Notes under the pieces: generated by a model
Databases searched by the model: none
Told to the model about the DNA's origin: nothing
Seen by the model: only the letters and a program-made list of their open reading frames with translations
Made by a program: the position numbers and the translations under genes
Shown here: piece after piece, positions 2,106-36,700 of the stretch
Position numbering within the stretch: the first letter of the stretch is position 1
Layout: each line of letters starts with the position of its first letter
Source of the DNA: Marmoricola sp.
GTDB taxonomy: Bacteria; Actinomycetota; Actinomycetes; Propionibacteriales; Nocardioidaceae
NCBI GenBank assembly: GCA_035699145.1
Contig: DASSBB010000076.1
Span: forward strand, 18,815-82,814
Reading direction: 5' to 3'
Length of the DNA: 64,000 nucleotides

Positions 2106-2200
2106 GGAGGCGTTCCTCGTCTGGTGACGGGCGCGGTCCTCAAAACCGTAGGGGCCCGGTATCCGGGTCCGGCGGGTTCGATTCCCGTCCGCCTCCGCCA
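2106..2200 (+). tRNA. selC: tRNA-Sec (anticodon UCA), CCA encoded
   Basis: 95 nt, GGAGGCG...CGCCUCC-G-CCA acceptor. It has a 6-bp D stem CTCGTC/GACGGG with 4-nt loop TGGT, typical of tRNA-Sec. The anticodon stem CGGT/ACCG carries loop CCUCAAA (anticodon UCA). The long variable arm is GGGCCCGG-TAT-CCGGGTCC and the T loop is GTTCGATTC. Confidence 0.9.
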
Positions 2201-23231: not shown

Positions 23232-24036
23232 GCCGCTCCTCGCCCCACGACGGCCGGTGGAAGGCTGGACCGGCGAACGGTCCCCCGACGAACCGGTCGT
23301 CGTGCTCGTCGTCGGCGGAGTCGGGAACGTCGGCGGCGTACTGCTCGGCATCGTCCTGAGGCTCGTAGCCGAGCGCGCGGCCGGGCGCGAGGTCCCACCA
23401 GCTGCGGGTGTTGGCCGAGATCCCGTAGAGGATCGCGAACCCAGGTGTCGGCGCGGTGAGCGCGGCGTCGACCATGCGGACGCAGTCGTCGTGGGAGAGC
23501 CACGTGGCGAGGTGGCGGCGCCGCTCCGGCTTGGGCAGGAAGGAGCCGATGCGGCAGGCGACCGCGTCGAGGCCGTAGCGGTCGGCGTACAGGCTGAGCA
23601 GGGCTTCCGCGGCGACCTTGCCGACGCCGTAGAACGTGTCCGGCCGCGGACGTGCGTCGATCCCGAGCGGTCCGCCTTCCTGGTGCGGGGTCCGGCCGAC
23701 CGCATGGTTCGACGAGGCGTAGACGATCCGCCGGATGCCGTTGTCGACCATGGCGTCCAGGAGCGCCCCTGTGGTGTGGACGTGGCTCGCCAGCGCGGTC
23801 GGCAGGTCGGTCTCGTCCGGGACGCCGGCCAGGTGCACGACGGCGTCGAGCGGCTGCGCGGTCACCGCGGCGCGCACCGCCGCCGCGTCGCCGACGTCGA
23901 GGACGTGCCACGGCCTGCCGGTCGTCGCCGGGTCCGGCAGCAGGTCGGCTCCGACGACCTCGTGCCCGCGGCTCTCCAGCCCGGGGACGAGGACCCGTCC
24001 GATCGAGCCGGCCGCACCGGTCACCAGAACCCTCAT
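23215..24036 (-). CDS. NAD-dependent epimerase/dehydratase family oxidoreductase, uronate dehydrogenase-like
   Basis: Carries the VTGAAGSIG Rossmann loop, ASSNH, YGVGK (YxxxK), RIGS and ATWLSHDD. This block order is what I recall from Agrobacterium/Pseudomonas Udh. Confidence 0.65.
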   Translation of the reverse strand: MRVLVTGAAGSIGRVLVPGLESRGHEVVGADLLPDPATTGRPWHVLDVGDAAAVRAAVTAQPLDAVVHLAGVPDETDLPTALASHVHTTGALLDAMVDNGIRRIVYASSNHAVGRTPHQEGGPLGIDARPRPDTFYGVGKVAAEALLSLYADRYGLDAVACRIGSFLPKPERRRHLATWLSHDDCVRMVDAALTAPTPGFAILYGISANTRSWWDLAPGRALGYEPQDDAEQYAADVPDSADDEHDDRFVGGPFAGPAFHRPSWGEERHEPGR

Positions 24037-24095
24037 GCGTGACTCCCTCCTCCGGGGGCGAACGCTACTCCGGGACGGGTCCGTACGATCGACCC

Positions 24096-25412
24096 GTGCC
24101 CGATCCCCGGCGGTCCACGCCTCGCACCGACCACGTGCTCGCCGACCCGCGCCTGGAGGAGCCGCTGGCCCGGCTCGGCCGTCCCCTGGTCAAGCAGGCG
24201 GTCGTCGCTGCCCTCGACCGGTGCCGCAGCGGCGAGGTCGCTCCGACCGAGGTGGCCGACGTCGTGCTGTCATCGCTGCCGGCCTCGGCGACCTCGATGC
24301 GCCGGGTCGTCAACGCCACGGGCGTCATCGTGCACACCAACCTCGGCCGCGCTCCGCTCTCCGCGGCCGCGGTCGACGCCGTCACGGTCGCGGCCGGGGC
24401 CACCGACGTGGAGCTCGACCTCGCCACCGGCCGCCGTGGTCGACGGGGTCGGTCTGCGATGGCGGCGCTCGCGGCCGCCGTACCTCTCGCCGAGGCGGTG
24501 CACGTGGTCAACAACGGCGCTGCCGCACTGGCGCTCGTCACGAACGCGTTCGCCCAAGGGCGCACCGTGGTCGTCGCCCGCGGCGAGATGGTGGAGATCG
24601 GCGACGGCTTCCGGATCCCCGAGCTGGTGGAGGCGGCCGGCGGCCGGCTGCGCGAGGTGGGTACGACGAACCGCGTGCACCTCTCCGACTACGAGCGCGC
24701 CGTCGACGACGACACCGCCTTCGTGCTCAAGGTGCACCCGTCGAACTTCGTGGTGCGAGGGTTCACCTCATCGGTACCGGTGGCCGGGCTGGCGACGCTG
24801 CCCGTGCCGGTCGTCGCCGACATCGGCTCGGGGTTGCTGCGGCCGCACCCTCGGCTGCCGGACGAGCCCAGCGCCGCCGCTGCGCTGGGCGACGGCGCGG
24901 CGCTGGTCACCGCGTCCGGCGACAAGCTGCTCGGAGGGCCGCAGTGCGGGCTCGTGCTCGGCCGGGCTTCGCTCGTCGAAGTGCTGCGGCGGCACCCGCT
25001 GGCACGGGCGATGAGGGTCGACAAGCTGACGTTGGCCGCGCTCGAGGCGACGCTCACGGGGCCACCGACGCCCGTCGCGCAGGCGCTGGCGACGCTACCC
25101 ACGGCACTGCGGGATCGCGCGGCGCGGGTGGTCGACGCGCTCGACGGTGTCGTGGAGGCTTCGGTCGTGAGCTCCGAGGGCGCCGTCGGTGGCGGTGGTG
25201 CACCGGAGGTCTCGCTGCCGAGTGCTGCGGTCGCCCTGCCCGAGGCCCTGGCGCCGGCGCTCCGGCTCTGCACCCCGGCTGTCGTCGGGCGCGTGGAGCA
25301 GGGCCGGTTGCTGCTCGACCTCCTCGCGGTCGCGCCCGAGGACGACGTCGCCCTGGTCGAGGCGGTACGCCGCGCCGCGGCCGGGCCGGAGGGCTTTCCG
25401 ACGTGCACGTGA
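24096..25412 (+). CDS. selA: L-seryl-tRNA(Sec) selenium transferase
   Basis: GTG 24096. Carries [19 protein letters not shown] and the PLP-lysine block [14 protein letters not shown], the SelA signatures. 438 aa. Confidence 0.9.
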
Positions 25413-27133
25413 TCGCCACCGCGGGCCACGTCGACCACGGCAAGAGCACGCTCGTCCAGGCGCTCACGGGCTCCGACCCGGACCGCTTGGCGGAGGAACG
25501 ATCCCGGGGGCTGACGATCGAGCTGGGCTACGCCTGGACGGCGCTGCCGTCCGTGGGTGAGGTGGCGTTCGTCGACGTGCCGGGCCACGAGCGGTTCGTC
25601 TCCACGATGCTGTCAGGCATCGGGCCGGTCCCTGCCGTCCTCCTCGTCGTCGCCGCCGACGACCCCTGGATGCCGCAGGCTGCGGAGCACCTCGCGGCGC
25701 TCGACGCCCTCGCGGTCGGGCACGGCGTGGTCGCGGTGACGCGCTCGGACCTCGCGGACCCGGCGCCGATGGTGGCGCGGGCACGTCACGAGCTGGCCTC
25801 GACCTCGTTGGCCGGGTCCCCGGTCGTGCCGGTCAGCGGGGCCACCGGGATGGGGCTCGACGAGCTGCGGCAGCGGCTCGTGGCGATGCTCGCCGCACTG
25901 CCCGCACCCGACCCGTCGGCGGACGTCCGGCTCTGGCTCGACCGTTCGTTCCACGTCAAGGGAGCGGGCACGGTGGTGACCGGGACGCTGCCCGCAGGCA
26001 GGATCCGTGTCGGGGACGTGCTCGCGGTCGGCGAGCGGACGGTGCGGGTCCGTGGCGTCCAGTCGTTGGGCAGGCCGGTCGACGAGGTGTCCGGCGTCGC
26101 CCGGGTCGCCCTGAACCTCAGTGGTGAGGACCGGGTCGCGCTGGACCGGCACAGCGTGCTCACCACCCCCTCGGCGTGGCACGAGACGGCGGCGCTCGAC
26201 GTCCGGCTCACCGGACCCGCCTCCGGACTCCCCCGTCGGCCGCTCCTGCACATCGGGGCGGTGGCGGTGCCGTCGTACTCCCGCCCGCTGGCGGACGACC
26301 TCGTCCGGCTCACTCTCGAGCGACCGCTGCCGCTGCGCGTCGGTGACCGGGCGCTGCTGCGAGACCCGGGCAGCCGGGTGGTCTGGGGGGTGACCGTGCT
26401 CGACCCGGCGCCGCCCGCGCTCGGTCGACGCGGGGCGGCGCGGGCGCGGGCGGACGAGCTGCGGCTCGTCGACGGCACTCCCTCCGTGGAGTCGGAGGTA
26501 CGCCGGCGTGGCGCCGTCCACGTCGACCTGCTCCGGCGGATCGGGGTGCCCTCTGACGGGTCCGCGTGGCTCGTGAGCGAGGAGACGCGTGCCCGGTGGC
26601 GCGCCGGCATGCGGCGGCTCGTCGAGCAGCACCACGTGGACCACCCGCTGGACGCCGGCGTACCGCTCTCCGCGCTGGCCTCGGCGCTGGGCGCCCCGGA
26701 CCCCGAGCTGCTCGCCTCCCTCGTCGAACCGCCCCTCGTGCTGGTGGACGGGCGGGTCTCCGTGGCCGGCCGGTCGACGTTGCCACCGGAGGTGGCCGCT
26801 GCGGTGAGCGAGCTGCGCTCCGAGCTCGCCGTCGCGCCGTTCGCGGCACCGACCGCAGACCGGCTGCGTGCGGTGGGGCTGAGTCCCCGAGCCGTATCGG
26901 CCGCGGCCAAGGCCGGCGAGCTGCTCCACCTCGGGGACGGGATCGTCCTCCTCCCCGACGCAGCGGACCGGGCGATCGAGCTGCTGCGGGAGCTGCCGCA
27001 GCCGTTCACGACGAGTGAGGCGCGGACCAGGCTGGGGACCAGCCGCCGCGTCGCCCTGCCACTCCTCCAGCACCTCGACCGACGACGGCTCACCCGTCGC
27101 CTGCCCGACGACCGCCGCACCGTGAATGGTTGA
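25403..27133 (+). CDS. selB: Selenocysteine-specific translation elongation factor
   Basis: GTG 25403, overlapping the selA stop by 10 nt. Carries the G1 motif [14 protein letters not shown], then DVPGHERF, with C-terminal winged-helix-like repeats. 576 aa. Confidence 0.9.
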
Positions 27134-27216
27134 GCCGCCCCTCGTGCTGGGTTGAGCCGCCCCTCGTGCTGGGTTGAGCCGCCCCTCGTGCAGGGTCGAG
27201 CCGCCCCTCGTGCTGG
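27129..27216 (+). repeat. Tandem array, 4 x 22 bp (GTTGAGCCGCCCCTCGTGCTGG)
   Basis: Units lie at 27129-27150, 27151-27172, 27173-27194 and 27195-27216. The first two are identical and the last two have 1 mismatch each. There are no spacers. The selB stop TGA (27131-27133) lies inside unit 1. Confidence 0.95.
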
Positions 27217-27292
27217 TGCGGCGGACCTCACACCGTCTGCCGCTGGCAGCGGCGGACGGACGGGGGGACGCTGGAGCCAGGAGGTGGTCCTC

Positions 27293-27766
27293 ATGAGGAC
27301 TGTCATCAGCCGGCATCCAGCACCGGCATCCGCTCATCACCCCGGGCGAGGAACTGCCGCCGTACGGCGCCGCTGGCTCCTGGCGTGGATCGGAATGGCC
27401 GCGTTGGGCGTGGTCAACGGGGTACTGCGCGAAGTGACCTACGCCGGCGCCGTCGGTGATCACACCGCCCACCAGCTGTCGACGTTCACGCTCATCGCGA
27501 TGATGGCCGCTTACGTCTGGTGGCTGCAGCAGCGGTGGCCGCTGACCTCGATGCAGGAAGCGCTGCGGATCGGTGCGTTGTGGGCAGCCATGACCGTCGT
27601 GTTCGAGTTCGGCTTCGGGCACTACGTCGACGGCGCCGCATGGTCCACGCTGCTGGCCGACTACGACATCACCCGAGGAAACCTGTGGATTCTTGTCCTC
27701 CTGACCATTGGCTCCGCGCCTGAGCTCGTGAGGCGGAGCGTCGTACCCCGCGCGAAGGGCGGTTGA
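27293..27766 (+). CDS. Hypothetical integral membrane protein (157 aa, about 4 TM helices)
   Basis: ATG 27293 with an AGGAGG RBS 8 nt upstream. Hydrophobic segments are LLAWIGMAALGVVNGVL, STFTLIAMMAAYVWWL, IGALWAAMTVVFEFGF and LWILVLLTIGSA. I recognise no family. Confidence 0.6.
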   Translation: MRTVISRHPAPASAHHPGRGTAAVRRRWLLAWIGMAALGVVNGVLREVTYAGAVGDHTAHQLSTFTLIAMMAAYVWWLQQRWPLTSMQEALRIGALWAAMTVVFEFGFGHYVDGAAWSTLLADYDITRGNLWILVLLTIGSAPELVRRSVVPRAKGG

Positions 27767-27815
27767 ACACAGCCCGAAGGGCGGTTGAACACAGCACGGA
27801 GGGCGGTTCAACACA
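27750..27815 (-). repeat. Tandem array, 3 x 22 bp, an inverted and diverged copy of the 27129 repeat family
   Basis: Units 27750-27771, 27772-27793 and 27794-27815 read GCNCGRAGGGCGGTTSAACACA. The reverse complement TGTGTTGAACCGCCCTCCGTGC matches the core TTGAGCCGCCCCTCGTGC at 15/18 positions. The stop TGA of the 157-aa ORF lies inside unit 1. Confidence 0.85.
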
Positions 27816-27820
27816 GGGGG

Positions 27821-29596
27821 TCAGGGGGTGCGGAGCTTGGCGAGCCGGGCCTCGAGGAGGGGCACCCGGTGGGCGTTGCCATGCAGCTGCACGTACCGCA
27901 TCCCGAAGAGGTCGAGGAGGGCGTCGTCGAGCCGACGGACGGCTCCGGCGGGGTACTTGTACCCCATCCGAGCGTCGATCGTCGTGTGGTCGACCGAGGC
28001 GAGCAGCCCGCCGAGCTCGTCGAGCGAGGTGATCCCCAGCTCGAGCAGCAGCCCTGCCACCCACTGGTAGTGGTCGGGGCGTGACCAGCCCGCCTCGACG
28101 AACCGCCCGGCGAGGAACGCCGCGAGCTCCTGGTCGCTGATCCGCGGGTCCTCCGAGGCGCCGTCGACCGGACGGTCCGGGAGCGCCGCCTGCAACCGGT
28201 CCCGGATCTGGGAGAACTCCCGGTCGGCGAGCTCGAGCAGCCCGGCCGCCAGCGTGAACCGCCGGTCGAGGTCGGGGGCGTGCTCCTCGGGGATCGTCCC
28301 CTTGTAGCGGATCGCGTGCTCGAACTCCGCCCACGCATGCTGCAGCACCGTCCGCACCTGCACCTGTGCCTGCCGCCCGCGGATCGCCTCGAGGGCCGGG
28401 CCGGCGCGCCCCACGTCGACGGAGACCAGCAGGTGCCGGCTGGCGTAGCCGAACCGGCCCTCGCTCGCCGTCTCCTGCCCCCAGTCCCGGTCGTCGAGGA
28501 CGACCATCTGGTCACCGAGCAGCTCGGCCACGGCCGCCACGTCGCTGTGCAGGTAGGTGATCACCCGCAGCCCGACCTGGTCGGTGATCTCCTCGAGCGG
28601 GTCCGTGTAGAGCCGCCGGCCGCCTGACGTCCGCTCGGCCTTCGCGGCGAACGAGGCGACGCTCTTGGCCCGACCGGTGACGCTGAGGTAGTTGATGCCG
28701 GCGTCGTCGAGCAGCGTCCTCACCAACGACACGAAGGTCTCCGTGGCGGCCTGCAGCTCCGGCTGCAGCTCGGCAAAGCGGCGGACCGCGTCCCGCGCCG
28801 GGTCCGCCGGCGGAGCGGGAGCGGGGACGGCCGCCGGAGCACGACGCGACGGCTCCTGTCCCTCCGGGAGCGTCGGGGTCACGATGTAGCCGGTCTCGCC
28901 GTCCCCGTAGACGGTCGTGAGGTCCGGCCGCTGGGACGAGAACAGGGCGACGTAGGCGCAGACGACGGCGTCCACCTGGTCCTCGACCTTCCGCAGGTCG
29001 CTCTTGCGCTCGGCGGCCTCGACCAGGGCCCGCAGCGAGAGCCAGGCCGGGTTGTCAGCGACCCGCAGCGGCACCGCGGCGACGTCGAGCCCCTCGAGGT
29101 GGTCCATGAGCACCAGGAGCTCCGACCGCAGTCGTTCGAGGGTCCGACCGGGCTTGTTCTTGTACTTCAGCGTCCGGCCGAGCCCGAACAGCGCCACGGT
29201 CGCCGGGTGCGGGTAGACCTCGATCGCCCGCCGTCGCGCCGTCGACGACGGGTCGGTGTCCAGCTTCAGGGCTGTCGCGATGCGGGCGGCCCGGGGGCCT
29301 CCGGCGAACTCCTTCTTGCCCGTGTTCGCCGGATGCGCTCCGGCGTCGAACCGGGCGAACACCTTGTTGAGCGCGGCCTCCGCGGGGCGGTTGCCGGTGG
29401 CGTTGGCCACGATCAGAGGGGCATCGATCGCGACGAGGCACTCCCCCTCGACGTACGGCGCCACCGCGGCCATGATCGCCGCATCGTCGCCGTGGGTCGA
29501 GACGTGCAGCAGCTCCCCCGCCCCGTCGAGGACGGCGACCCCGGTGGGCCGGTTCTGGCCCCAGGCCAGGTCGAGCCCGACGAAGTGGCCGCTCAC
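27821..29596 (-). CDS. DUF429-like (predicted RNase H-fold) domain fused to a RelA/SpoT-type alarmone synthetase domain
   Basis: The N-terminal ~270 aa (FVGLDLAWG...CLVAIDAPL...VYPHPA...EDQVDAVVCAYVA) looks DUF429-like. The central part carries synthetase motifs GRAKSVASFAAK, DQVGLRVITY, GYASRHLLV and VQVRTVLQHAWAEFEH. A helical C-terminal domain of ~150 aa follows. I prefer GTG 29596 (GTGA overlap with the channel stop) over the track ATG 29638, because third-position GC is low before 29596. Confidence 0.8.
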   Translation of the reverse strand: MSGHFVGLDLAWGQNRPTGVAVLDGAGELLHVSTHGDDAAIMAAVAPYVEGECLVAIDAPLIVANATGNRPAEAALNKVFARFDAGAHPANTGKKEFAGGPRAARIATALKLDTDPSSTARRRAIEVYPHPATVALFGLGRTLKYKNKPGRTLERLRSELLVLMDHLEGLDVAAVPLRVADNPAWLSLRALVEAAERKSDLRKVEDQVDAVVCAYVALFSSQRPDLTTVYGDGETGYIVTPTLPEGQEPSRRAPAAVPAPAPPADPARDAVRRFAELQPELQAATETFVSLVRTLLDDAGINYLSVTGRAKSVASFAAKAERTSGGRRLYTDPLEEITDQVGLRVITYLHSDVAAVAELLGDQMVVLDDRDWGQETASEGRFGYASRHLLVSVDVGRAGPALEAIRGRQAQVQVRTVLQHAWAEFEHAIRYKGTIPEEHAPDLDRRFTLAAGLLELADREFSQIRDRLQAALPDRPVDGASEDPRISDQELAAFLAGRFVEAGWSRPDHYQWVAGLLLELGITSLDELGGLLASVDHTTIDARMGYKYPAGAVRRLDDALLDLFGMRYVQLHGNAHRVPLLEARLAKLRTP

Positions 29597-31326
29597 CGGA
29601 GCTGCTCGCTGTCGCGCCGCCCGGCGAGCCTGCGCCACACCCAGCTCGAGGGCGCGAACCGGTCCTCGAGCACGTACGCCGCGGTGGGCTCCTCGGTCAG
29701 CGTCAGCTGGAGGGAGGTGCGAGCGCGCGACCGGCCGGCGATGAGCAGCTGGTCGTCGGTGCGCAGCACCACGTCGTTGTCGGGAGCCATCACCCGGGTG
29801 CCGTCGGCGCGCAGCAGCGCGAGAGGTACGGCGGGCAGCGGCTCGACCCGGAAGGCGGGGTCCCGCAGGAGGTCACCGAGGACGACGCCCTCGGTGGCGA
29901 GCCGGTCGACCAGGGCCGGCGCCCGGGCAGCGTCGAGGTGAACCCGCCACAGGTCGGGGGCACCGGTCCCGCACCTCTCGACCAGCCGGTCGAGCATCCG
30001 CCGCGACCACGCCTCGCCCTCACGAGGCACGCGAGGCAGGAACCGCATGAGCACCGGGCTGGCGATCCGCGCCAGCACCTCGTGGGCGATCACCTCCGCG
30101 GGCACCATGCCGAAGTCCACGCCCACGGCCTCGAACAGCTTCGAGTTGGCCCGACGGTTCTGCAGGGCCGCGACGAAGGCGTCCGGGTTCGCCCGGCGGG
30201 CCGCGTCGACCAGCCAGAGGTTGGTGGTGTCGTTCTCGGTGGCGGCGACAAAGCCGACCGCGTCGTCCACATCACCCGCCTCGACGACGACCGAGCTGTC
30301 CCCCTCGCCGGCCCGGACCGTGCCGCCGGTGACGCGCACCCGGGTCACCTCGAGCTCCTCGGCCTCCAGGTCGGCGGTGAGCTCGTCGCCGAACCGGCCG
30401 TGCCCGGCCACGACCCACCGGCCGCGCGGCGGGGGCACGGGCCGGTCGGGCAGCGGCGTGCCCGGGGCGCTGGTCAGCCACACCATCAGCTGGTAGGCAG
30501 CCGGCGAGCGGAGCAGGATCCGCAGGTGGTCGCCGAACCGGTCCAGCGGGTTGACCACCTCCTGCGCGGCGAAGGCTCGCATCCGCTCGGCGACATCACG
30601 CGAGCTCGACCTCGCGATCACCGGGAGGTCGGGCCGGAGCAGCGCGGTCGTCATCGTCACGTCGAGGTTCGTCCCGTCGTCGCCGGTCAGGGCGACCACT
30701 CCCTCACAGTGCCGGTGCCCCAGCCCGGCAAGCGTCATCCGGCTGGTGTCCCGGGCGTCGCCGAGCAACGCCGGTGCGTCGGCGGTGTAGGAGTCGAGGT
30801 CGACCTGGGAGACCCGCCTCTCCTCGCGGTCGATGACCACGAAGCGTCGGCCCATGTCGTCGAGAGAGCGCGCGAGCATCTTGGTCGCGTTCCCGTAGCC
30901 GACGAGGAGGAGGAACGGCTCGCCCATCCGGCGTACCGCCTTGTAGAAAGCCCGGCGCGCGAGGGCCTGGCGGAAGGCGGTGTCCTGCATGAGCGAGAGC
31001 AGGGAGCCGATCGCGTAGGCCCACCCGACCACCGAGAGGAAGATGACGACCGTCACCCACATCCGCTGCTCGGTCGTGAAGGGGTGCGGGATCTCGCCGA
31101 AGCCGATCGTCGACGCCGTGTAGGTCATGAAGTAGAACGCCTCGAACAGGCTCAACCGGTCAGGCCGCCCCTGGTCGTCGACGCCGGGGACCAGCGACAG
31201 CCCGAGCACGCTGACGGCGAAGATCGAGATGAGCACGATGAGCGGCACGCGCATCCGACGCATGACGAGGACGAGCCCGGCCGAGGCGAGCTGGCCGCGG
31301 ATCTCCGGGAGCGGGGTGGGGGCCAC
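29593..31326 (-). CDS. Two-TM potassium channel with tandem RCK/TrkA-N domains
   Basis: The pore helix plus filter is FYFMTYTASTIGFGE. Two Rossmann loops are present: LLLVGYGNATK and WVVAGHGRFG. 577 aa. The start is uncertain; an internal Met at residue 22 is possible. Confidence 0.8.
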   Translation of the reverse strand: MAPTPLPEIRGQLASAGLVLVMRRMRVPLIVLISIFAVSVLGLSLVPGVDDQGRPDRLSLFEAFYFMTYTASTIGFGEIPHPFTTEQRMWVTVVIFLSVVGWAYAIGSLLSLMQDTAFRQALARRAFYKAVRRMGEPFLLLVGYGNATKMLARSLDDMGRRFVVIDREERRVSQVDLDSYTADAPALLGDARDTSRMTLAGLGHRHCEGVVALTGDDGTNLDVTMTTALLRPDLPVIARSSSRDVAERMRAFAAQEVVNPLDRFGDHLRILLRSPAAYQLMVWLTSAPGTPLPDRPVPPPRGRWVVAGHGRFGDELTADLEAEELEVTRVRVTGGTVRAGEGDSSVVVEAGDVDDAVGFVAATENDTTNLWLVDAARRANPDAFVAALQNRRANSKLFEAVGVDFGMVPAEVIAHEVLARIASPVLMRFLPRVPREGEAWSRRMLDRLVERCGTGAPDLWRVHLDAARAPALVDRLATEGVVLGDLLRDPAFRVEPLPAVPLALLRADGTRVMAPDNDVVLRTDDQLLIAGRSRARTSLQLTLTEEPTAAYVLEDRFAPSSWVWRRLAGRRDSEQLR

Positions 31327-31332
31327 GGCGGC

Positions 31333-31719
31333 CTAGCGACGGCGGAACGAGACGGTCTCGACGACCAGCAGGACGACCGAGACGATGTTCGCGAACAGCG
31401 CACCACCCGAGAGCGAGACCACCGCGGCGGTGGTCTCCGGGTCGAGGGAGCTGCCCCCGACGTTGGTGGCGAACGCCCAGACCACCGCTCCGGAGACGAG
31501 CTGCAGCGTCGCGACGAGACTCGTGGCGAGGTGCACCGCGCCGATCTGGGTGCGGTCGCCGAACTTGAGCACGGTGGCGATGAGGTTGACCACGACCGCG
31601 GCGAAGAGCTCGTAGACGTTGTGGACGTGCGGGGCGTCGATCGGGCCGATGAAGAACCCGAAGTTGAGGGTGGCGGCGAGCAGCACGAAGAAGCCGAAGA
31701 TCACCTTCTCCAGGTTCAT
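31333..31719 (-). CDS. Hypothetical small integral membrane protein (128 aa, about 4 TM helices)
   Basis: ATG 31719 with a GAGGGAG RBS. It is hydrophobic throughout and lies 6 nt upstream of the channel gene. Confidence 0.6.
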   Translation of the reverse strand: MNLEKVIFGFFVLLAATLNFGFFIGPIDAPHVHNVYELFAAVVVNLIATVLKFGDRTQIGAVHLATSLVATLQLVSGAVVWAFATNVGGSSLDPETTAAVVSLSGGALFANIVSVVLLVVETVSFRRR

Positions 31720-31801
31720 CGACGCTCCCTCGCTCGGCTTCTGGGCATCGTACGGCGGCGCCCACCGATCGTGCTGCACGTGACCGTGCGGCGGCGAGCC
31801 G

Positions 31802-32017
31802 TCAGGAGGACCGCTTGATGAACTTGTGCGTGCCGTCGCACCACGGCGCACGCTGGCTGCGCCCGCACATGCAGACGCCGACCACAGGGCGGGTGACCGG
31901 GTGCTCGGTGCCGTCCTGGTCACGGACGACGTCGGCGCCACGCACCAGCGCGGGACGGTTCTCCCCGCAGAGCACGATCTCGACGTCGTGTCCGACGGCC
32001 TCGGGGACGGCGGTCAC
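31802..32017 (-). CDS. CDGSH iron-sulfur domain protein
   Basis: 71 aa with CMCGRSQRAPWCDGTH, the CDGSH 2Fe-2S signature. It overlaps the stop of the upstream gene by 4 nt. Confidence 0.85.
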   Translation of the reverse strand: MTAVPEAVGHDVEIVLCGENRPALVRGADVVRDQDGTEHPVTRPVVGVCMCGRSQRAPWCDGTHKFIKRSS

Positions 32018-33024
32018 GCGGCACCGACCAGGTCGGCCGCGTCGCGCAGTGCGCTACGGCCCTCACGCCAAGCGGTCACCAGCCCGGCGCCGTCGAGAGC
32101 CTCGAGGTGGCAGCAGACGAAGGCGCCGAAGAGGATGTCGGCGACCAGCTCCGGCTCGTCGTCCCCCAGCACTCCGCAGATGTCCCGGAGCGCCAGCTGC
32201 TCGTGGACGGCGTCGGCCTCGACGTGCTCGTCGAAGTACTCCGCCGCCCTCTCGGACAGCCCGATCCGCCGCATCCCCTGGGCGATCCGGCGGCACGGGA
32301 TCGAGCTCGTGCTCTCGAAGGCGGCGAGGTGGCCCATCGCGGCGCCACGGAACCGGCGGTGCAGCGCGAAGAGCGACGTCGCGTTGTTGACGGCGAGCGT
32401 GGTTGCGGGGGCGTGCTGGAGGTAGACGCCGTACGTGTCGTCGAGCCCGGCCTCGACGAGCGTGCGGGCGAACAGCGTCTGGTGGAGCCGGTCGGGTCTG
32501 CCGGAGCCGTACTCGTCGTACTGCAGCTCGGCGAGCCGCACCTTCGGGACGCCGCGCAGCCTCGCCAGGACGAACGACTGGGGGTCGGACTCCTTGAGGT
32601 GGTAGACGCTCTTGATCTTGAGGTACTCGCGGTACTGCTCCAGAGTCGCCTCGCGCTGCATGAACCGCGCGAGGTCGGCCCCGGGGACCGCCTCGACGAG
32701 CGCCTCGATCCGCTCGTGGAGCGGCGCGTCGGGGGACGTCTCGGGCACCGGCCCGGCCGCGCGGAGGGCGTCGACGAAGACCCTCTCCAGGACGGCGCGG
32801 CAGGCAAACGCGCCCGGGTGCCACTCCCACTCCTCGTCGCAGTCGTCGAACCCCCGGTAGTGCAGCTCGTAGAGGACCCAGAGGGCGAGCTGGAAGTCGG
32901 CGTCGTGGAGGCAGTCACCGTCGTACGAGGAGGGGCCGGACGGGAACGAGCCCGTTGTCGCCGGGGCACGGAGGGCGTCGATGACCTGGGCGCTCAACGC
33001 GCCGGTCGGCTCAGGAAGTAGCAC
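32014..33024 (-). CDS. Iron-containing redox enzyme family protein (heme-oxygenase-like fold, possible diiron oxidase)
   Basis: 336 aa, all-helical. Candidate carboxylate/His ligand blocks are LAELQYDEYGSG, GHLAAFESTS and YFDEHVEADAVHEQ. Confidence 0.6.
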   Translation of the reverse strand: MLLPEPTGALSAQVIDALRAPATTGSFPSGPSSYDGDCLHDADFQLALWVLYELHYRGFDDCDEEWEWHPGAFACRAVLERVFVDALRAAGPVPETSPDAPLHERIEALVEAVPGADLARFMQREATLEQYREYLKIKSVYHLKESDPQSFVLARLRGVPKVRLAELQYDEYGSGRPDRLHQTLFARTLVEAGLDDTYGVYLQHAPATTLAVNNATSLFALHRRFRGAAMGHLAAFESTSSIPCRRIAQGMRRIGLSERAAEYFDEHVEADAVHEQLALRDICGVLGDDEPELVADILFGAFVCCHLEALDGAGLVTAWREGRSALRDAADLVGAA

Positions 33025-33099
33025 CGCAGCGGTCCCCTCACACTCGGGCCGGCGCCCGCGCGCCGGTCGTCGCCTGCTTCCTACCCGGCGAGTACCGAG

Positions 33100-34587
33100 T
33101 TACACGGTTCGGGTTCGCAACGGCCGCGTCGCCGGCCCCTCGAGGACCTGGCCGTCAGGAGTGAACCGCGAACCGTGCAGCGGGCAGTCCCACGACTTCT
33201 CGGCGTCGTTCCACTTCAGGGTTCCTCCCACATGGGTGCAGATCGCGACGACCGAGCAGGTCTTCCCGTCCACGGTGGCGGTTCCCGTCGGCACGAGCCC
33301 GTCCCGGCCGACGACGCCGGCGCCCTCGGCCGGGAGCTCATCGGTCCTCCGCAGTCCAGCCCGAACCGTCGAGGCGAGCTCGGCGGCCGCGACGCCGACG
33401 TTCATCCGGCCGACCTGCAGACCACCTGACGACGTCGGCTTCCGCTCCGCCATCGTCCGCGCCCAGTGCGGCACCTCACCGCCGAGGATCGTCGCGCTCA
33501 GCTGGAGGGATGCCGCGACCGCATTGGTCATCCCCCACTTGTCGTAGCCGGTCGCGTAGTGGATCCGTCCGCCGCCGAGCGGCAGCTTCCCGACCAGTGG
33601 CACCCCGTCGTACGGCGAGTAGTCCTGCGCGGACCAGGCGTGCGTCTCGGTGGCGCCCGGGAAGTGCTCCTGGGTCCACGAGCGGAGCTCGTCGAGGTGC
33701 TGCCGCTCCGAGGGGGTCCTGCCGACGGTGTGGCCGCTGCCGCCGACGAGGAAGACGCTCCTCCCGTCGCCGACCGGCACGTCGCGCAAGGAGCGCGACG
33801 AGGAGCCGGCGGAGAGGTACATCCCGTCGGGGATCGAAGCTCCCTCGTAGGCCAGCAGGTAGGAGCGCTTCGGCTCGGCCTTCGCCCAGGTCACCGCCCG
33901 GTCGAGGATCGGCATGCCGGTGGCGAGCACGAGGTTGTCCGCCGTCAGGGTGCGCCCGGAGTCGAGCCGGAGCTCGGGGCGGCCGCTCTTGGACACCGAC
34001 ACCACCCGGTGTCCCTCGTGCACCGTCCCGCCGTGAGCCCTCAGCTGCTCGACGAGCGCGGCGAGGACCGCCATCGGGTCGAACTGCGCCTGGTCGGCGA
34101 GCACCACCGCCCCGTGGTTCGGGAACGGCACGTCGAGCCGGTCACGCCACTCGACCTCGAGGCCGAGCTGGGACGCCGCCTCGTGCTCCTTGCGGACGGC
34201 GCTCAGCTCCGTCGGGTCGGCGGCGTAGGTGACGGCGTCGCGGGGCTGCACCGCGACCCCGTGGTCGCGGCAGAACCGGAGCAGCCACTCCTTGCCCTCG
34301 AGGTTCCCCTCGAGGTAGGCGCGGGCGACCTGCTCGGTCTGCCTGGAGAGGATCTCGCTCAGCTTGGTGCCCTGGAGCAGCGAGACCTTGGCGGTCGTCC
34401 GGCCTGTCGTCACCGCTCCGACGTGCCTCGCCTCGACCACGCCGACCCGACGGCCGGCCCGGGCGAGGAGCAGGGCGGTGGTGAGCCCGGTGAGCCCCGC
34501 TCCGACGACGATCTCCTCGAACCTCCCGTCCTCGGGGAACGGGTCCTCGAGGTGCTCGAGGGGGCGGTCCAGCCACAAGGATGTCAT
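33100..34587 (-). CDS. FAD-dependent oxidoreductase with C-terminal Rieske 2Fe-2S domain
   Basis: The N-terminal dinucleotide fold is IVVGAGLTGLTTALLLARAG. The C-terminal Rieske motif is CTHVGG...CPLHGSRF. Confidence 0.8.
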   Translation of the reverse strand: MTSLWLDRPLEHLEDPFPEDGRFEEIVVGAGLTGLTTALLLARAGRRVGVVEARHVGAVTTGRTTAKVSLLQGTKLSEILSRQTEQVARAYLEGNLEGKEWLLRFCRDHGVAVQPRDAVTYAADPTELSAVRKEHEAASQLGLEVEWRDRLDVPFPNHGAVVLADQAQFDPMAVLAALVEQLRAHGGTVHEGHRVVSVSKSGRPELRLDSGRTLTADNLVLATGMPILDRAVTWAKAEPKRSYLLAYEGASIPDGMYLSAGSSSRSLRDVPVGDGRSVFLVGGSGHTVGRTPSERQHLDELRSWTQEHFPGATETHAWSAQDYSPYDGVPLVGKLPLGGGRIHYATGYDKWGMTNAVAASLQLSATILGGEVPHWARTMAERKPTSSGGLQVGRMNVGVAAAELASTVRAGLRRTDELPAEGAGVVGRDGLVPTGTATVDGKTCSVVAICTHVGGTLKWNDAEKSWDCPLHGSRFTPDGQVLEGPATRPLRTRTV

Positions 34588-34680
34588 GGAGAACGGGCTC
34601 CTGGAGGGTCGGAGACGATGACCTTGCTCCTACCCTGTCGCAAGCGGCGCGAACCGGACGGCGTCTGCGATCATCGGCGG

Positions 34681-36700
<2,020 letters not shown>

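What the first reader, a model, noticed from the sequence alone, without database searches (positions are those of the whole stretch)
27821..31719. Translationally coupled operon: small membrane protein, RCK-gated K+ channel, and a DUF429(RNase H-like)-RelA/SpoT alarmone-synthetase fusion
Three minus-strand genes are packed with a 6-nt gap and a GTGA stop/start overlap.

The last product fuses a DUF429-like domain to a complete RelA/SpoT synthetase motif set (RAKSVASFAAK, DQVGLRVI, GYASRH, VQVRTVLQHAWAEFEH) and an extra C-terminal domain of about 150 aa. Architecturally it recalls the mycobacterial RNase HII-(p)ppGpp synthetase fusion MS_RHII-RSD, the actRel class, as I remember it.

What I do not recognise as described is its tight coupling to a two-TM K+ channel (filter TIGFGE) carrying two nucleotide-binding RCK domains, plus a four-TM partner protein.

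Hypothesis: the nucleotide made by the synthetase, (p)ppGpp or a (pp)pApp-like product, gates the channel through its RCK domains. That would link R-loop or nucleic-acid stress sensing to membrane potential and K+ homeostasis. A more speculative alternative is a signal-synthase plus membrane-effector abortive-infection module. The surrounding context is housekeeping and contains no other defence genes.
Basis: partly seen in the sequence, partly recalled or inferred. Interest (0 to 1): 0.7.

Follow-up and report, generated by a model that had tools for sequence, protein, structure and literature searches.

The report
RelZ-type synthetase captured behind K+ channel
The three tightly packed genes are real, but they are two unrelated units: a small membrane protein plus potassium channel pair that is conserved across phyla, and a known RelZ-type RNase H/alarmone-synthetase fusion that sits next to the channel only in one narrow group of close relatives, so nothing indicates that the alarmone controls the channel.

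Summary
DUF6394 (31333-31719), a 2-TM K+ channel with two RCK domains (29593-31326) and a DUF429-RelA/SpoT fusion (27821-29596) lie on the minus strand, with a 6-nt gap and a GTGA stop/start overlap.

The fusion is an orthologue of the characterised mycobacterial RelZ (MS_RHII-RSD, RnhD; the actRel class). It is 63-64% identical over its full length to Mycolicibacterium copies.

The proposed functional coupling is not supported.
- The genome scan found at least 579 relatives of the fusion. I examined 85 loci.
- A channel lies upstream only in the four loci whose fusion is at least 84% identical, and there the whole region is syntenic.
- None of the 81 loci at 73% identity or less has a channel or DUF6394 within 10 kb.
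- At least 11 channel loci with enough downstream sequence lack the fusion.

Outside the clade, fusion orthologues carry a conserved GGCAnnnT-N6-ATG element at the start codon, which looks like a leaderless promoter. In the window clade the channel's 3' end occupies that position. The fusion was therefore probably captured into the channel operon in this lineage.

The conserved association is DUF6394 plus channel. They are adjacent in every locus examined, including a gammaproteobacterial one and a 26-29% GC lineage.

Overall this is ordinary, with one modest lead: DUF6394 may be a channel partner.

The parts
31747..31752 (-). TACGAT, a -10-like hexamer 28-33 nt upstream of the DUF6394 start. 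It is the candidate promoter of the DUF6394-channel unit and, in this clade, of the fusion as well.
   Evidence: TA(C/G)GAT or a close variant recurs upstream of DUF6394 in most of the 17 aligned loci, whatever the upstream gene. It usually lies about 25-35 nt from the start, further in L082/L083, and is not evident in L098. Coordinates were checked. This is a consensus-type match only. The sigma-70 scan found nothing.
31333..31719 (-). DUF6394 gene, encoding a 128-aa protein with four predicted TM helices. It is the conserved neighbour of the channel.
   Evidence: Pfam PF19931, E 2.4e-36. AF2 predicts four helices at low confidence (pLDDT 64.5). Homologues are 77-94% identical, with 70 invariant columns among 30 sequences. 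It lies next to an Ion_trans_2/TrkA_N channel in every locus examined.
29593..31326 (-). K+ channel gene, 577 aa. Two TM helices plus a pore with filter TIGFGE (aa 73-78), RCK1 (TrkA_N, aa 140-260), RCK2 (TrkA_N, aa 305-405), and a weak TrkA_C-like C-terminal end.
   Evidence: Pfam. The best solved relative is GsuK of Geobacter (4gx0/4gx5, E 2e-8). The filter, the GYG of RCK1 and D166 are conserved in 18 homologues. The TrkA_C match is below threshold (E 0.006).
29593..29596 (-). GTGA, where the channel stop overlaps the fusion start.
   Evidence: CCGGTGA is conserved in the window, L001 and L101-L103. In orthologues outside the clade this position holds a GGCAnnnT-N6-ATG element instead.
27821..29596 (-). 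RelZ-type (actRel) fusion gene, 591 aa. DUF429 RNase H-like domain (aa 7-220; nt 28937-29578), small-alarmone-synthetase domain (aa ~266-470; Pfam match nt 28298-28675), and a conserved helical C-terminal domain (aa ~437-591; nt 27824-28288).
   Evidence: Pfam. PDB sequence hits to B. subtilis SAS1/YjbM (E 4e-13). Foldseek hits to SAS1/RelP (TMt 0.6-0.76). AF2 pLDDT 79.9. 62-88% identical over the full length to 80 genome loci, including Mycolicibacterium. Invariant D9, D58, E126, D206 and D209 in the DUF429 domain, and R309, K311, D339, R344, Y384, H388, Q413 and R415 in the synthetase domain.
28364..28366 (-). Codon for Q411, the position of the canonical catalytic Glu of the ExQxRT synthetase motif.
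   Evidence: The alignment to YjbM places Q411 opposite the Glu of VEIQIRT. At this column 63 sequences have Q, 22 have S, 1 has A and none has E, among the 86 aligned family members (window protein included).

Best explanation
The region joins two independent functional units that became neighbours in one narrow actinobacterial lineage.

Unit 1 is DUF6394 plus a GsuK-like K+ channel (two TM helices, TIGFGE filter, two tandem RCK domains per subunit). The pair is conserved across phyla. In Actinomycetota it usually carries a -10-like TA(C/G)GAT element just upstream of DUF6394. Inference: the small four-helix protein works with the channel, as an accessory subunit or assembly factor. Gating is by the cytoplasmic RCK ring in response to a cytosolic ligand. 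Adenine nucleotides or ions are the precedent; the actual ligand is unknown.

Unit 2 is an orthologue of mycobacterial RelZ/MS_RHII-RSD/RnhD. It has a DUF429 RNase H-like domain, a small alarmone synthetase domain and a family-specific helical C-terminal domain. [quoted passage not shown]

In most genomes Unit 2 is a stand-alone gene with variable neighbours and a conserved GGCAnnnT-N6-start element, which suggests a leaderless transcript. In the window's clade the channel's 3' end replaces that element. The ancestral ATG is gone, and a GTG two codons upstream overlaps the channel's stop. The fusion is therefore probably transcribed from the DUF6394-channel promoter and translated by coupling.

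Shown: the domain content, the orthology, the distribution of the adjacency and the motif conservation. Inferred: co-transcription, the promoter roles, and a physical DUF6394-channel partnership. Nothing indicates a biochemical link between the synthetase and the channel.
For: Adjacency is restricted to near relatives.
- tblastn found a channel or DUF6394 next to the fusion in 1 of 80 genome loci.
- Profile HMMs confirmed this. Only L001 and L101-L103 have a channel upstream, and all four have a fusion at least 84% identical.
- In that clade the whole block FAD/Rieske - Haem_oxygenas_2 - zf-CDGSH - DUF6394 - channel - fusion - SelB - SelA is collinear.

Fusion contexts elsewhere are unrelated.
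- Peptidase_S9 upstream in Nocardioides mesophilus, and CbiQ in another Nocardioidaceae contig.
- purB lies divergently upstream in 12 mycobacterial loci. This matches the Rv0776c/purB position in the literature (PMC5224475).
- No neighbour cluster is shared by more than 11 loci.

The reciprocal test agrees.
- 13 of 13 metagenomic channel loci with upstream sequence have DUF6394, and none has the fusion.
- The same holds for Vallicoccus soli and Propionibacteriaceae, for a gammaproteobacterial MAG and for a 26-29% GC lineage with divergent orientation.

Promoter-like motifs.
- TA(C/G)GAT lies upstream of DUF6394 in most loci.
- GGCAnnnT-N6-start occurs in 57 of 80 fusion orthologues outside the clade exactly, and in 71 of 80 in relaxed form. 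It is absent in the window clade.

Family identity: and the literature read.
Against: - The GTGA overlap is conserved within the clade. It implies co-expression there, which could have acquired a physiological meaning.
- The RCK ligand is unknown, so alarmone binding cannot be excluded from sequence alone.
- The promoter assignments rest on motif conservation only. The consensus scan found no sigma-70 sites or terminators in 27000-35000.
- M. smegmatis RelZ itself was not aligned. Orthology is inferred through Mycolicibacterium copies and purB synteny.
Confidence: 0.85

Rival explanations
1. The nucleotide made by the fusion ((pp)pGpp, or a (pp)pApp-like product) binds the channel's RCK domains and gates K+ flux, linking R-loop or nucleic-acid stress to membrane potential.
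For: The genes overlap (GTGA) and are probably co-transcribed in this clade. The RCK domains keep Rossmann-type glycine motifs (GYGNAT, GHGRFG) and D166, so a nucleotide ligand is plausible.
Against: Adjacency is absent from 81 of 81 fusion loci at 73% identity or less, and from every DUF6394-channel locus outside the clade. Both units function without the other almost everywhere. No paper in the library links ppGpp to RCK domains; the hits concern c-di-AMP. The synthetase lacks the canonical catalytic Glu, so its product in vivo is itself uncertain.
Confidence: 0.03
2. An abortive-infection or defence module. The fusion senses phage nucleic acid and makes a signal or toxin nucleotide, and the channel is the membrane effector.
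For: The DUF429 part matches the PADLOC candidate profile PDC-S44 (E 8.6e-83), and the synthetase part weakly matches PDC-S33 (E 6.5e-9). The fusion's neighbourhood varies between genomes. Related SAS enzymes such as CapRel are defence toxins; CapRel appears among the weaker fold hits.
Against: The PDC profiles are untested candidates, and no paper describes them. The channel and DUF6394 have no PADLOC hit. The flanks are housekeeping genes: SelA/SelB, Haem_oxygenas_2, CDGSH and FAD/Rieske. The fusion is highly conserved (62-71% identity from Nocardioides to Mycolicibacterium) and syntenic with purB in mycobacteria, which looks like vertical inheritance. Synthase-effector pairing is not conserved.
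Confidence: 0.02
3. Lineage-specific co-regulation without a direct biochemical link. In this clade, placing the RelZ-type gene under the DUF6394-channel promoter makes its expression follow whatever controls the channel (for example K+ or osmotic state), and selection keeps that arrangement.
For: The ancestral start-proximal motif has been lost, and the overlap is conserved in all five clade sequences: the window, L001 and L101-L103. Other lineages have likewise placed the fusion tightly behind unrelated genes (L015/L016/L018, L032/L046, L003).
Against: The clade is so narrow that conservation of the junction may reflect only recent common ancestry. There are no expression data.
Confidence: 0.1

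Closest known systems
RelZ / MS_RHII-RSD / RnhD (MSMEG_5849) of Mycolicibacterium smegmatis, in the actRel subgroup of small alarmone synthetases
   Same: Same architecture: N-terminal DUF429 RNase H-like domain, RelA/SpoT synthetase domain, no HD hydrolase domain, similar length (591 versus 567 aa). 63-64% identical over the full length to Mycolicibacterium orthologues that lie beside purB. Literature: PMC3153485, PMC4429107, PMC5224475, PMC7591505.
   Different: The genomic context differs. Here the gene overlaps the stop of a K+ channel gene and lacks the start-proximal GGCAnnnT element of most orthologues. M. smegmatis RelZ itself was not aligned. No activity was tested.
GsuK, the multi-ligand-gated K+ channel of Geobacter sulfurreducens (PDB 4gx0, 4gx1, 4gx2, 4gx5)
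   Same: Two-TM pore followed by two tandem RCK domains in one polypeptide. It is the best solved sequence relative. Both have a GFG-type selectivity filter.
   Different: The similarity is weak (E 2e-8, mainly one RCK domain). The ligands are unknown here. I do not know whether GsuK has a DUF6394 neighbour; this was not checked.
SAS1/RelQ (YjbM) and SAS2/RelP of Firmicutes
   Same: The synthetase domain has the same fold (Foldseek TMt 0.6-0.76) and shares the RxKxxxSxxxK, DxxGxR, GYxSxH and QxRT...W..EH motifs.
   Different: The window protein has additional DUF429 and C-terminal domains. The Glu of ExQxRT is replaced by Gln.
Pfam DUF6394 (PF19931)
   Same: Full-length match (E 2.4e-36).
   Different: The family has no described function, and no paper in the library mentions it. 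Its consistent pairing with two-RCK channels, seen here, is as far as I know not described.

Membership tests
RelZ-type actRel (DUF429-SAS fusion) | N-terminal DUF429 (RNase H-like) domain | tested here: met
   PF04250, aa 7-220, E 1.1e-28. Invariant acidic residues D9, D58, E126, D206 and D209 across 86 sequences.
RelZ-type actRel (DUF429-SAS fusion) | RelA/SpoT synthetase domain without an HD hydrolase domain | tested here: met
   PF04607, aa 308-433, E 3.2e-14, and no HD hit. SAS fold confirmed.
RelZ-type actRel (DUF429-SAS fusion) | Full-length orthology to the mycobacterial proteins | tested here: met
   63-64% identity over residues 4-589 to M. pyrenivorans and M. chubuense loci. Those loci lie beside purB, as Rv0776c does in the literature. 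M. smegmatis itself was not aligned.
RelZ-type actRel (DUF429-SAS fusion) | RNase H activity and (pp)pGpp synthesis | not testable with these tools
   Reported only for the M. smegmatis enzyme (PMC7591505, PMC10500699). The canonical catalytic Glu is absent in the whole family.
Canonical RSH synthetase active site | Glu of the ExQxRT motif (RelMtb E325, stated to be essential in PMC10500699) | tested here: not met
   Q411 aligns with the Glu of YjbM VEIQIRT. The column holds Q in 63, S in 22 and A in 1 of the 86 aligned family members.
Two-RCK (GsuK-like) prokaryotic K+ channel | Two-TM pore with a TxGxGx selectivity filter | tested here: met
   Ion_trans_2, aa 31-114. T-I-G-F-G-E is conserved in 18 homologues, and hydrophobic segments lie at 17-50 and 88-113.
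Two-RCK (GsuK-like) prokaryotic K+ channel | Two tandem RCK (TrkA_N) domains in the same chain | tested here: met
   TrkA_N at aa 140-260 and 305-405. GsuK is the best PDB hit.
Two-RCK (GsuK-like) prokaryotic K+ channel | Ligand gating (nucleotide or Ca2+) | not testable with these tools
   Only the glycine motifs and D166 can be read from the sequence.
Signal-synthase plus membrane-effector defence system | Conserved co-occurrence of synthase and effector genes | tested here: not met
   None of 81 fusion loci outside the clade has a channel, and no channel locus outside the clade has the fusion.
Signal-synthase plus membrane-effector defence system | Match to a known defence system, or a defence-island context | tested here: not met
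   Only the untested candidate profiles PDC-S44 and PDC-S33 hit the fusion, and nothing hit the channel or DUF6394. The neighbours are housekeeping genes.

The most novel reading that the evidence does not exclude
DUF6394 is a dedicated partner (accessory subunit, assembly factor or regulator) of a family of two-RCK, GsuK-like K+ channels. The two genes are adjacent in every locus examined. These include several actinobacterial families, a gammaproteobacterial MAG (channel 35% identical) and a 26-29% GC lineage (channel ~20% identical, genes divergently oriented). DUF6394 is more conserved than the channel itself. No publication in the searched library mentions the family.

I put it at about 0.03.
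Probability: 0.55. Interest if true: 0.35.

Novelty: new member of a known kind. Interest (0 to 1): 0.2.

Why it matters
As proposed, the finding would have given a direct link between alarmone signalling and K+ channel gating. The comparative evidence removes the basis for that link.

Three smaller points remain.
- The DUF6394-channel gene pair is clear and conserved across phyla. It assigns a likely role to an uncharacterised membrane-protein family and could be tested by co-expression.
- The whole RelZ-type family lacks the catalytic Glu that is considered essential in Rel enzymes. This bears on the reports that RelZ synthesis is unusual (Mg2+-independent).
- The locus is a tidy example of a normally autonomous, probably leaderless gene being captured into a neighbouring operon.

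Tried and rejected
- Neighbour clustering around the 80 fusion loci seemed to show a second protein in 63 loci. It was an artefact: the antisense ORF of the high-GC fusion gene merged with purB. A direct purB search found it in only the 12 mycobacterial loci.
- The paper search for 'DUF429' mostly returned DUF4297 (HerA-DUF4297 defence) papers because of prefix matching. Those papers are not about this domain.
- The AF2 model of DUF6394 was too poor (pLDDT 64.5) for a meaningful fold search, so none was run.
- The fold search with the full fusion model returned only SAS/Rel hits. It gave nothing for the DUF429 or C-terminal domains in the top 50, and no Pfam family matches the C-terminal 149 aa. 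That domain stays unassigned.
- The consensus promoter/terminator scan of 27000-35000 found nothing useful.
- The Rfam scan found no riboswitch near the channel, only tRNA-Sec far upstream.
- NCBIfam gave only sub-threshold hits.

Full report
**1. The observation**

- The small membrane protein runs from an ATG at 31719 to a stop at 31333, and the ATG is preceded by GAGGGAG.
- Six bases later the channel ORF starts at 31326 and ends with a TGA at 29595-29593.
- The GTG at 29596-29594 overlaps that stop as GTGA and opens the fusion ORF, which ends at 27821.

Pfam confirms every domain call.
- DUF6394 (E 2.4e-36).
- Ion_trans_2 plus two TrkA_N stretches. The second stretch was confirmed alone at aa 305-405 (E 2.6e-11).
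- DUF429 (aa 7-220) plus RelA_SpoT (aa 308-433).

The same strand continues upstream with three further genes: zf-CDGSH (31802-32017), Haem_oxygenas_2 (32014-33024, also joined by a GTGA overlap) and a DAO/Rieske oxidoreductase (33100-34587). Downstream, SelB and SelA converge on the fusion.

**2. What the fusion is**

A scan of one genome per species found at least 579 relatives. The 80 best are 62-88% identical over essentially the full length. They come from Nocardioides, Marmoricola, Mumia, Ornithinimicrobium, Georgenia, Angustibacter and Mycolicibacterium/Mycobacterium.

The literature places the family clearly.
- Atkinson et al. 2011 defined the actRel subgroup of small alarmone synthetases. 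They noted that the M. smegmatis, M. gilvum and M. vanbaalenii members carry an N-terminal DUF429 (PMC3153485).
- MSMEG_5849 (MS_RHII-RSD, RelZ, RnhD; 567 aa) is reported to have RNase H activity through that domain and to synthesise pGpp and (p)ppGpp. It is reported to be a hexamer and to be UV-induced (PMC4429107, PMC7591505, PMC10500699, PMC5224475).
- In the 12 mycobacterial loci the gene lies divergently beside purB. This fits the statement that the M. tuberculosis counterpart is Rv0776c, next to purB (Rv0777).

The synthetase domain aligns to B. subtilis SAS1/YjbM (E 4e-13). An AlphaFold model (pLDDT 79.9) matches SAS1 and RelP structures (TMt 0.6-0.76).

The C-terminal ~150 residues are helical and conserved in all orthologues, and they have no Pfam or fold assignment. 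They are therefore part of the family, not an addition in this genome.

**3. Is the coupling to the channel conserved?**

It is not.
- With the window's channel and DUF6394 as tblastn queries, only L001 (fusion 88% identical) has them next to the fusion. None of the other 79 loci has them within 10 kb.
- Profile HMMs built from the homologues give the same answer over 85 fusion loci. The positives are L001 and L101-L103.
- The protein search shows a sharp step from 84-91% identity (seven proteins) to 73% or less for everything else.
- In L101 and L102 the whole block is collinear with the window, from the upstream oxidoreductase fragment through Haem_oxygenas_2, zf-CDGSH, DUF6394, channel and fusion to SelB and SelA. 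L001 also has the FAD/Rieske and Haem_oxygenas_2 genes upstream. L103 is a short contig that shows only the channel 3' end ahead of the fusion.
- Elsewhere the upstream gene is unrelated: Peptidase_S9 in Nocardioides mesophilus, CbiQ in another Nocardioidaceae contig, purB in mycobacteria.
- Apart from the fusion itself and an antisense-ORF artefact, no neighbour cluster occurs in more than 11 of the 80 loci.

The reciprocal test agrees.
- Of 17 metagenomic channel loci, all 13 with upstream sequence have DUF6394 directly upstream, and none has a fusion. Seven of them have 0.8-3.7 kb of downstream sequence.
- Vallicoccus soli and two Propionibacteriaceae genomes have the pair with other flanks.

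**4. How the junction arose**

Outside the clade, the sequence immediately before the fusion's start codon is strikingly conserved. G-14 G-13 C-12 A-11 ... T-7 is followed by six bases and then ATG or GTG. This holds exactly in 57 of 80 loci and in relaxed form in 71 of 80.

From general knowledge of actinobacterial promoters (a -10 element of the form TANNNT, and frequent leaderless mRNAs), this is the geometry of a -10 element driving a leaderless transcript. That reading is an inference.

In the window, L001 and L101-L103 the same positions are the last codons of the channel. Position -11 is G and position -7 is A. The ancestral ATG codon is GGC, and translation must start at the GTG two codons upstream, inside CCGGTGA. 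A few other lineages have also placed the fusion within about 10 nt of an unrelated upstream gene or a tRNA.

Upstream of DUF6394, a TA(C/G)GAT element or a close variant recurs in most of the aligned loci, whatever gene precedes it. It usually lies about 25-35 nt before the start. In the window it is at 31747-31752.

The most economical reading is that the DUF6394-channel pair is an autonomous transcription unit, and that the normally autonomous fusion gene was captured at its 3' end in this lineage. Co-transcription here is likely, but it is lineage-specific.

**5. The channel and its real partner**

The channel has a conserved T-I-G-F-G-E filter and two hydrophobic segments. It has a GYG-type RCK1 with a conserved Asp at the end of beta-2, and a GHGRFG motif in RCK2 that is degenerate in some homologues. 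There is a sub-threshold TrkA_C-like end. Its best solved relative is GsuK, the two-RCK multi-ligand K+ channel (4gx0/4gx5, E 2e-8).

DUF6394 is unusually conserved. Homologues are 77-94% identical, with 70 invariant columns in 30 sequences. It is more conserved than the channel beside it. The family is small, with 492 clusters at 50% identity in 1.8 billion representatives.

I used a distant member (P0353) to reach other phyla.
- In a gammaproteobacterial MAG, DUF6394 is followed after 9 nt by a 591-aa Ion_trans_2/TrkA_N protein that is 35% identical to the window channel.
- In a 26-29% GC lineage, the channel (~20% identical) lies divergently about 100-130 nt from DUF6394, next to minD/minE.

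Adjacency that survives this divergence and a change of orientation is good comparative evidence for a functional partnership. No paper in the library mentions DUF6394.

**6. The proposed mechanisms**

Alarmone gating of the RCK ring cannot be excluded by sequence. It now has no comparative support, and no precedent in the searched literature, where RCK domains appear with c-di-AMP.

The defence reading rests only on two untested PADLOC candidate profiles hitting the fusion (PDC-S44 at E 8.6e-83 and PDC-S33 at E 6.5e-9), and no paper describes them. The channel and DUF6394 hit nothing, the flanks are housekeeping genes, and the fusion looks vertically inherited.

**7. A correction to the motif claim**

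The Glu of the ExQxRT motif is Gln here (Q411). At this column the 86 aligned family members have Q in 63, S in 22 and A in 1, and never Glu. The corresponding residue E325 is stated to be essential in RelMtb (PMC10500699). The same review reports that RelZ synthesis is Mg2+-independent. Whether the two facts are connected was not tested.

**8. Verdict**

The fusion is a new member of the known RelZ/actRel family, and the channel is a GsuK-like two-RCK K+ channel. The three-gene operon is a lineage-specific juxtaposition, not a conserved system. The conserved DUF6394-channel pair is the only modestly new lead.

Noticed in passing
window 28364-28366 (codon Q411 of the fusion); loci L001-L080 and L101-L105: The canonical catalytic Glu of the RelA/SpoT ExQxRT motif is Gln, Ser or Ala in all 86 aligned RelZ-type family members (window protein included), and never Glu. 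All other synthetase motifs are invariant. This may relate to the reported Mg2+-independent synthesis by M. smegmatis RelZ.
   Followed up: partly
L002-L080, L104, L105, immediately upstream of the fusion start; absent at window 29597-29615: A conserved GGCAnnnT-N6-ATG/GTG element lies directly at the start codon of fusion orthologues, from Nocardioidaceae to Mycobacteriaceae, Georgenia and Ornithinimicrobium (57 of 80 exact). Its geometry is that of a -10 box for a leaderless mRNA. The unusually conserved GGC before the A suggests a specific sigma factor or regulator.
   Followed up: partly
window 31747-31752 (-) and the equivalent positions in L001, L081-L092 and L099-L102: A TA(C/G)GAT(G/T)C element, or a close variant, lies upstream of DUF6394 in most of the aligned loci regardless of the upstream gene. 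It is usually about 25-35 nt from the start, further in L082/L083, and not evident in L098. It is a candidate promoter of the DUF6394-channel unit.
   Followed up: partly
window 27128-27216 and 27753-27816: Two arrays of a 22-nt tandem repeat (4 and 2.9 copies, units about 18/21 identical, in opposite orientation) sit just after the SelB stop and just after the fusion stop. They bracket a 204-aa ORF (27152-27766, +) that has no Pfam hit and a weaker codon-position GC signal (GC3 0.80 versus 0.95 in the neighbouring genes). The segment between the fusion and SelB varies among clade relatives: a 150-aa ORF in L101 and none called in L102.
   Followed up: partly
window 31802-34587 (-): Upstream on the same strand are a DAO/Rieske fusion oxidoreductase, a Haem_oxygenas_2 'iron-containing redox enzyme' and a 71-aa zf-CDGSH protein. 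The last two are joined by another GTGA overlap at 32014-32017. The trio is syntenic in L101/L102. It looks like a separate small redox operon of unknown function.
   Followed up: no
window 2106-2200 (+) and ~23650-27133 (+): tRNA-Sec (ARAGORN and Rfam RF01852, 75.5 bits) lies about 21 kb from selA/selB. The organism therefore uses selenocysteine.
   Followed up: no
fusion aa 4-248 (window 28853-29587): The DUF429 domain matches the PADLOC candidate single-gene profile PDC-S44 very strongly (E 8.6e-83, profile length 259). That is the size of stand-alone DUF429 proteins such as M. tuberculosis Rv0776c. No publication describing PDC-S44 was found.
   Followed up: partly
L106, L107, L110 (26-29% GC contigs): In a low-GC lineage, DUF6394 is immediately followed by minD/minE-like genes (4-nt overlap in L106/L107, 46-nt gap in L110), while the channel is divergent. 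This is a different operon partner for DUF6394.
   Followed up: no
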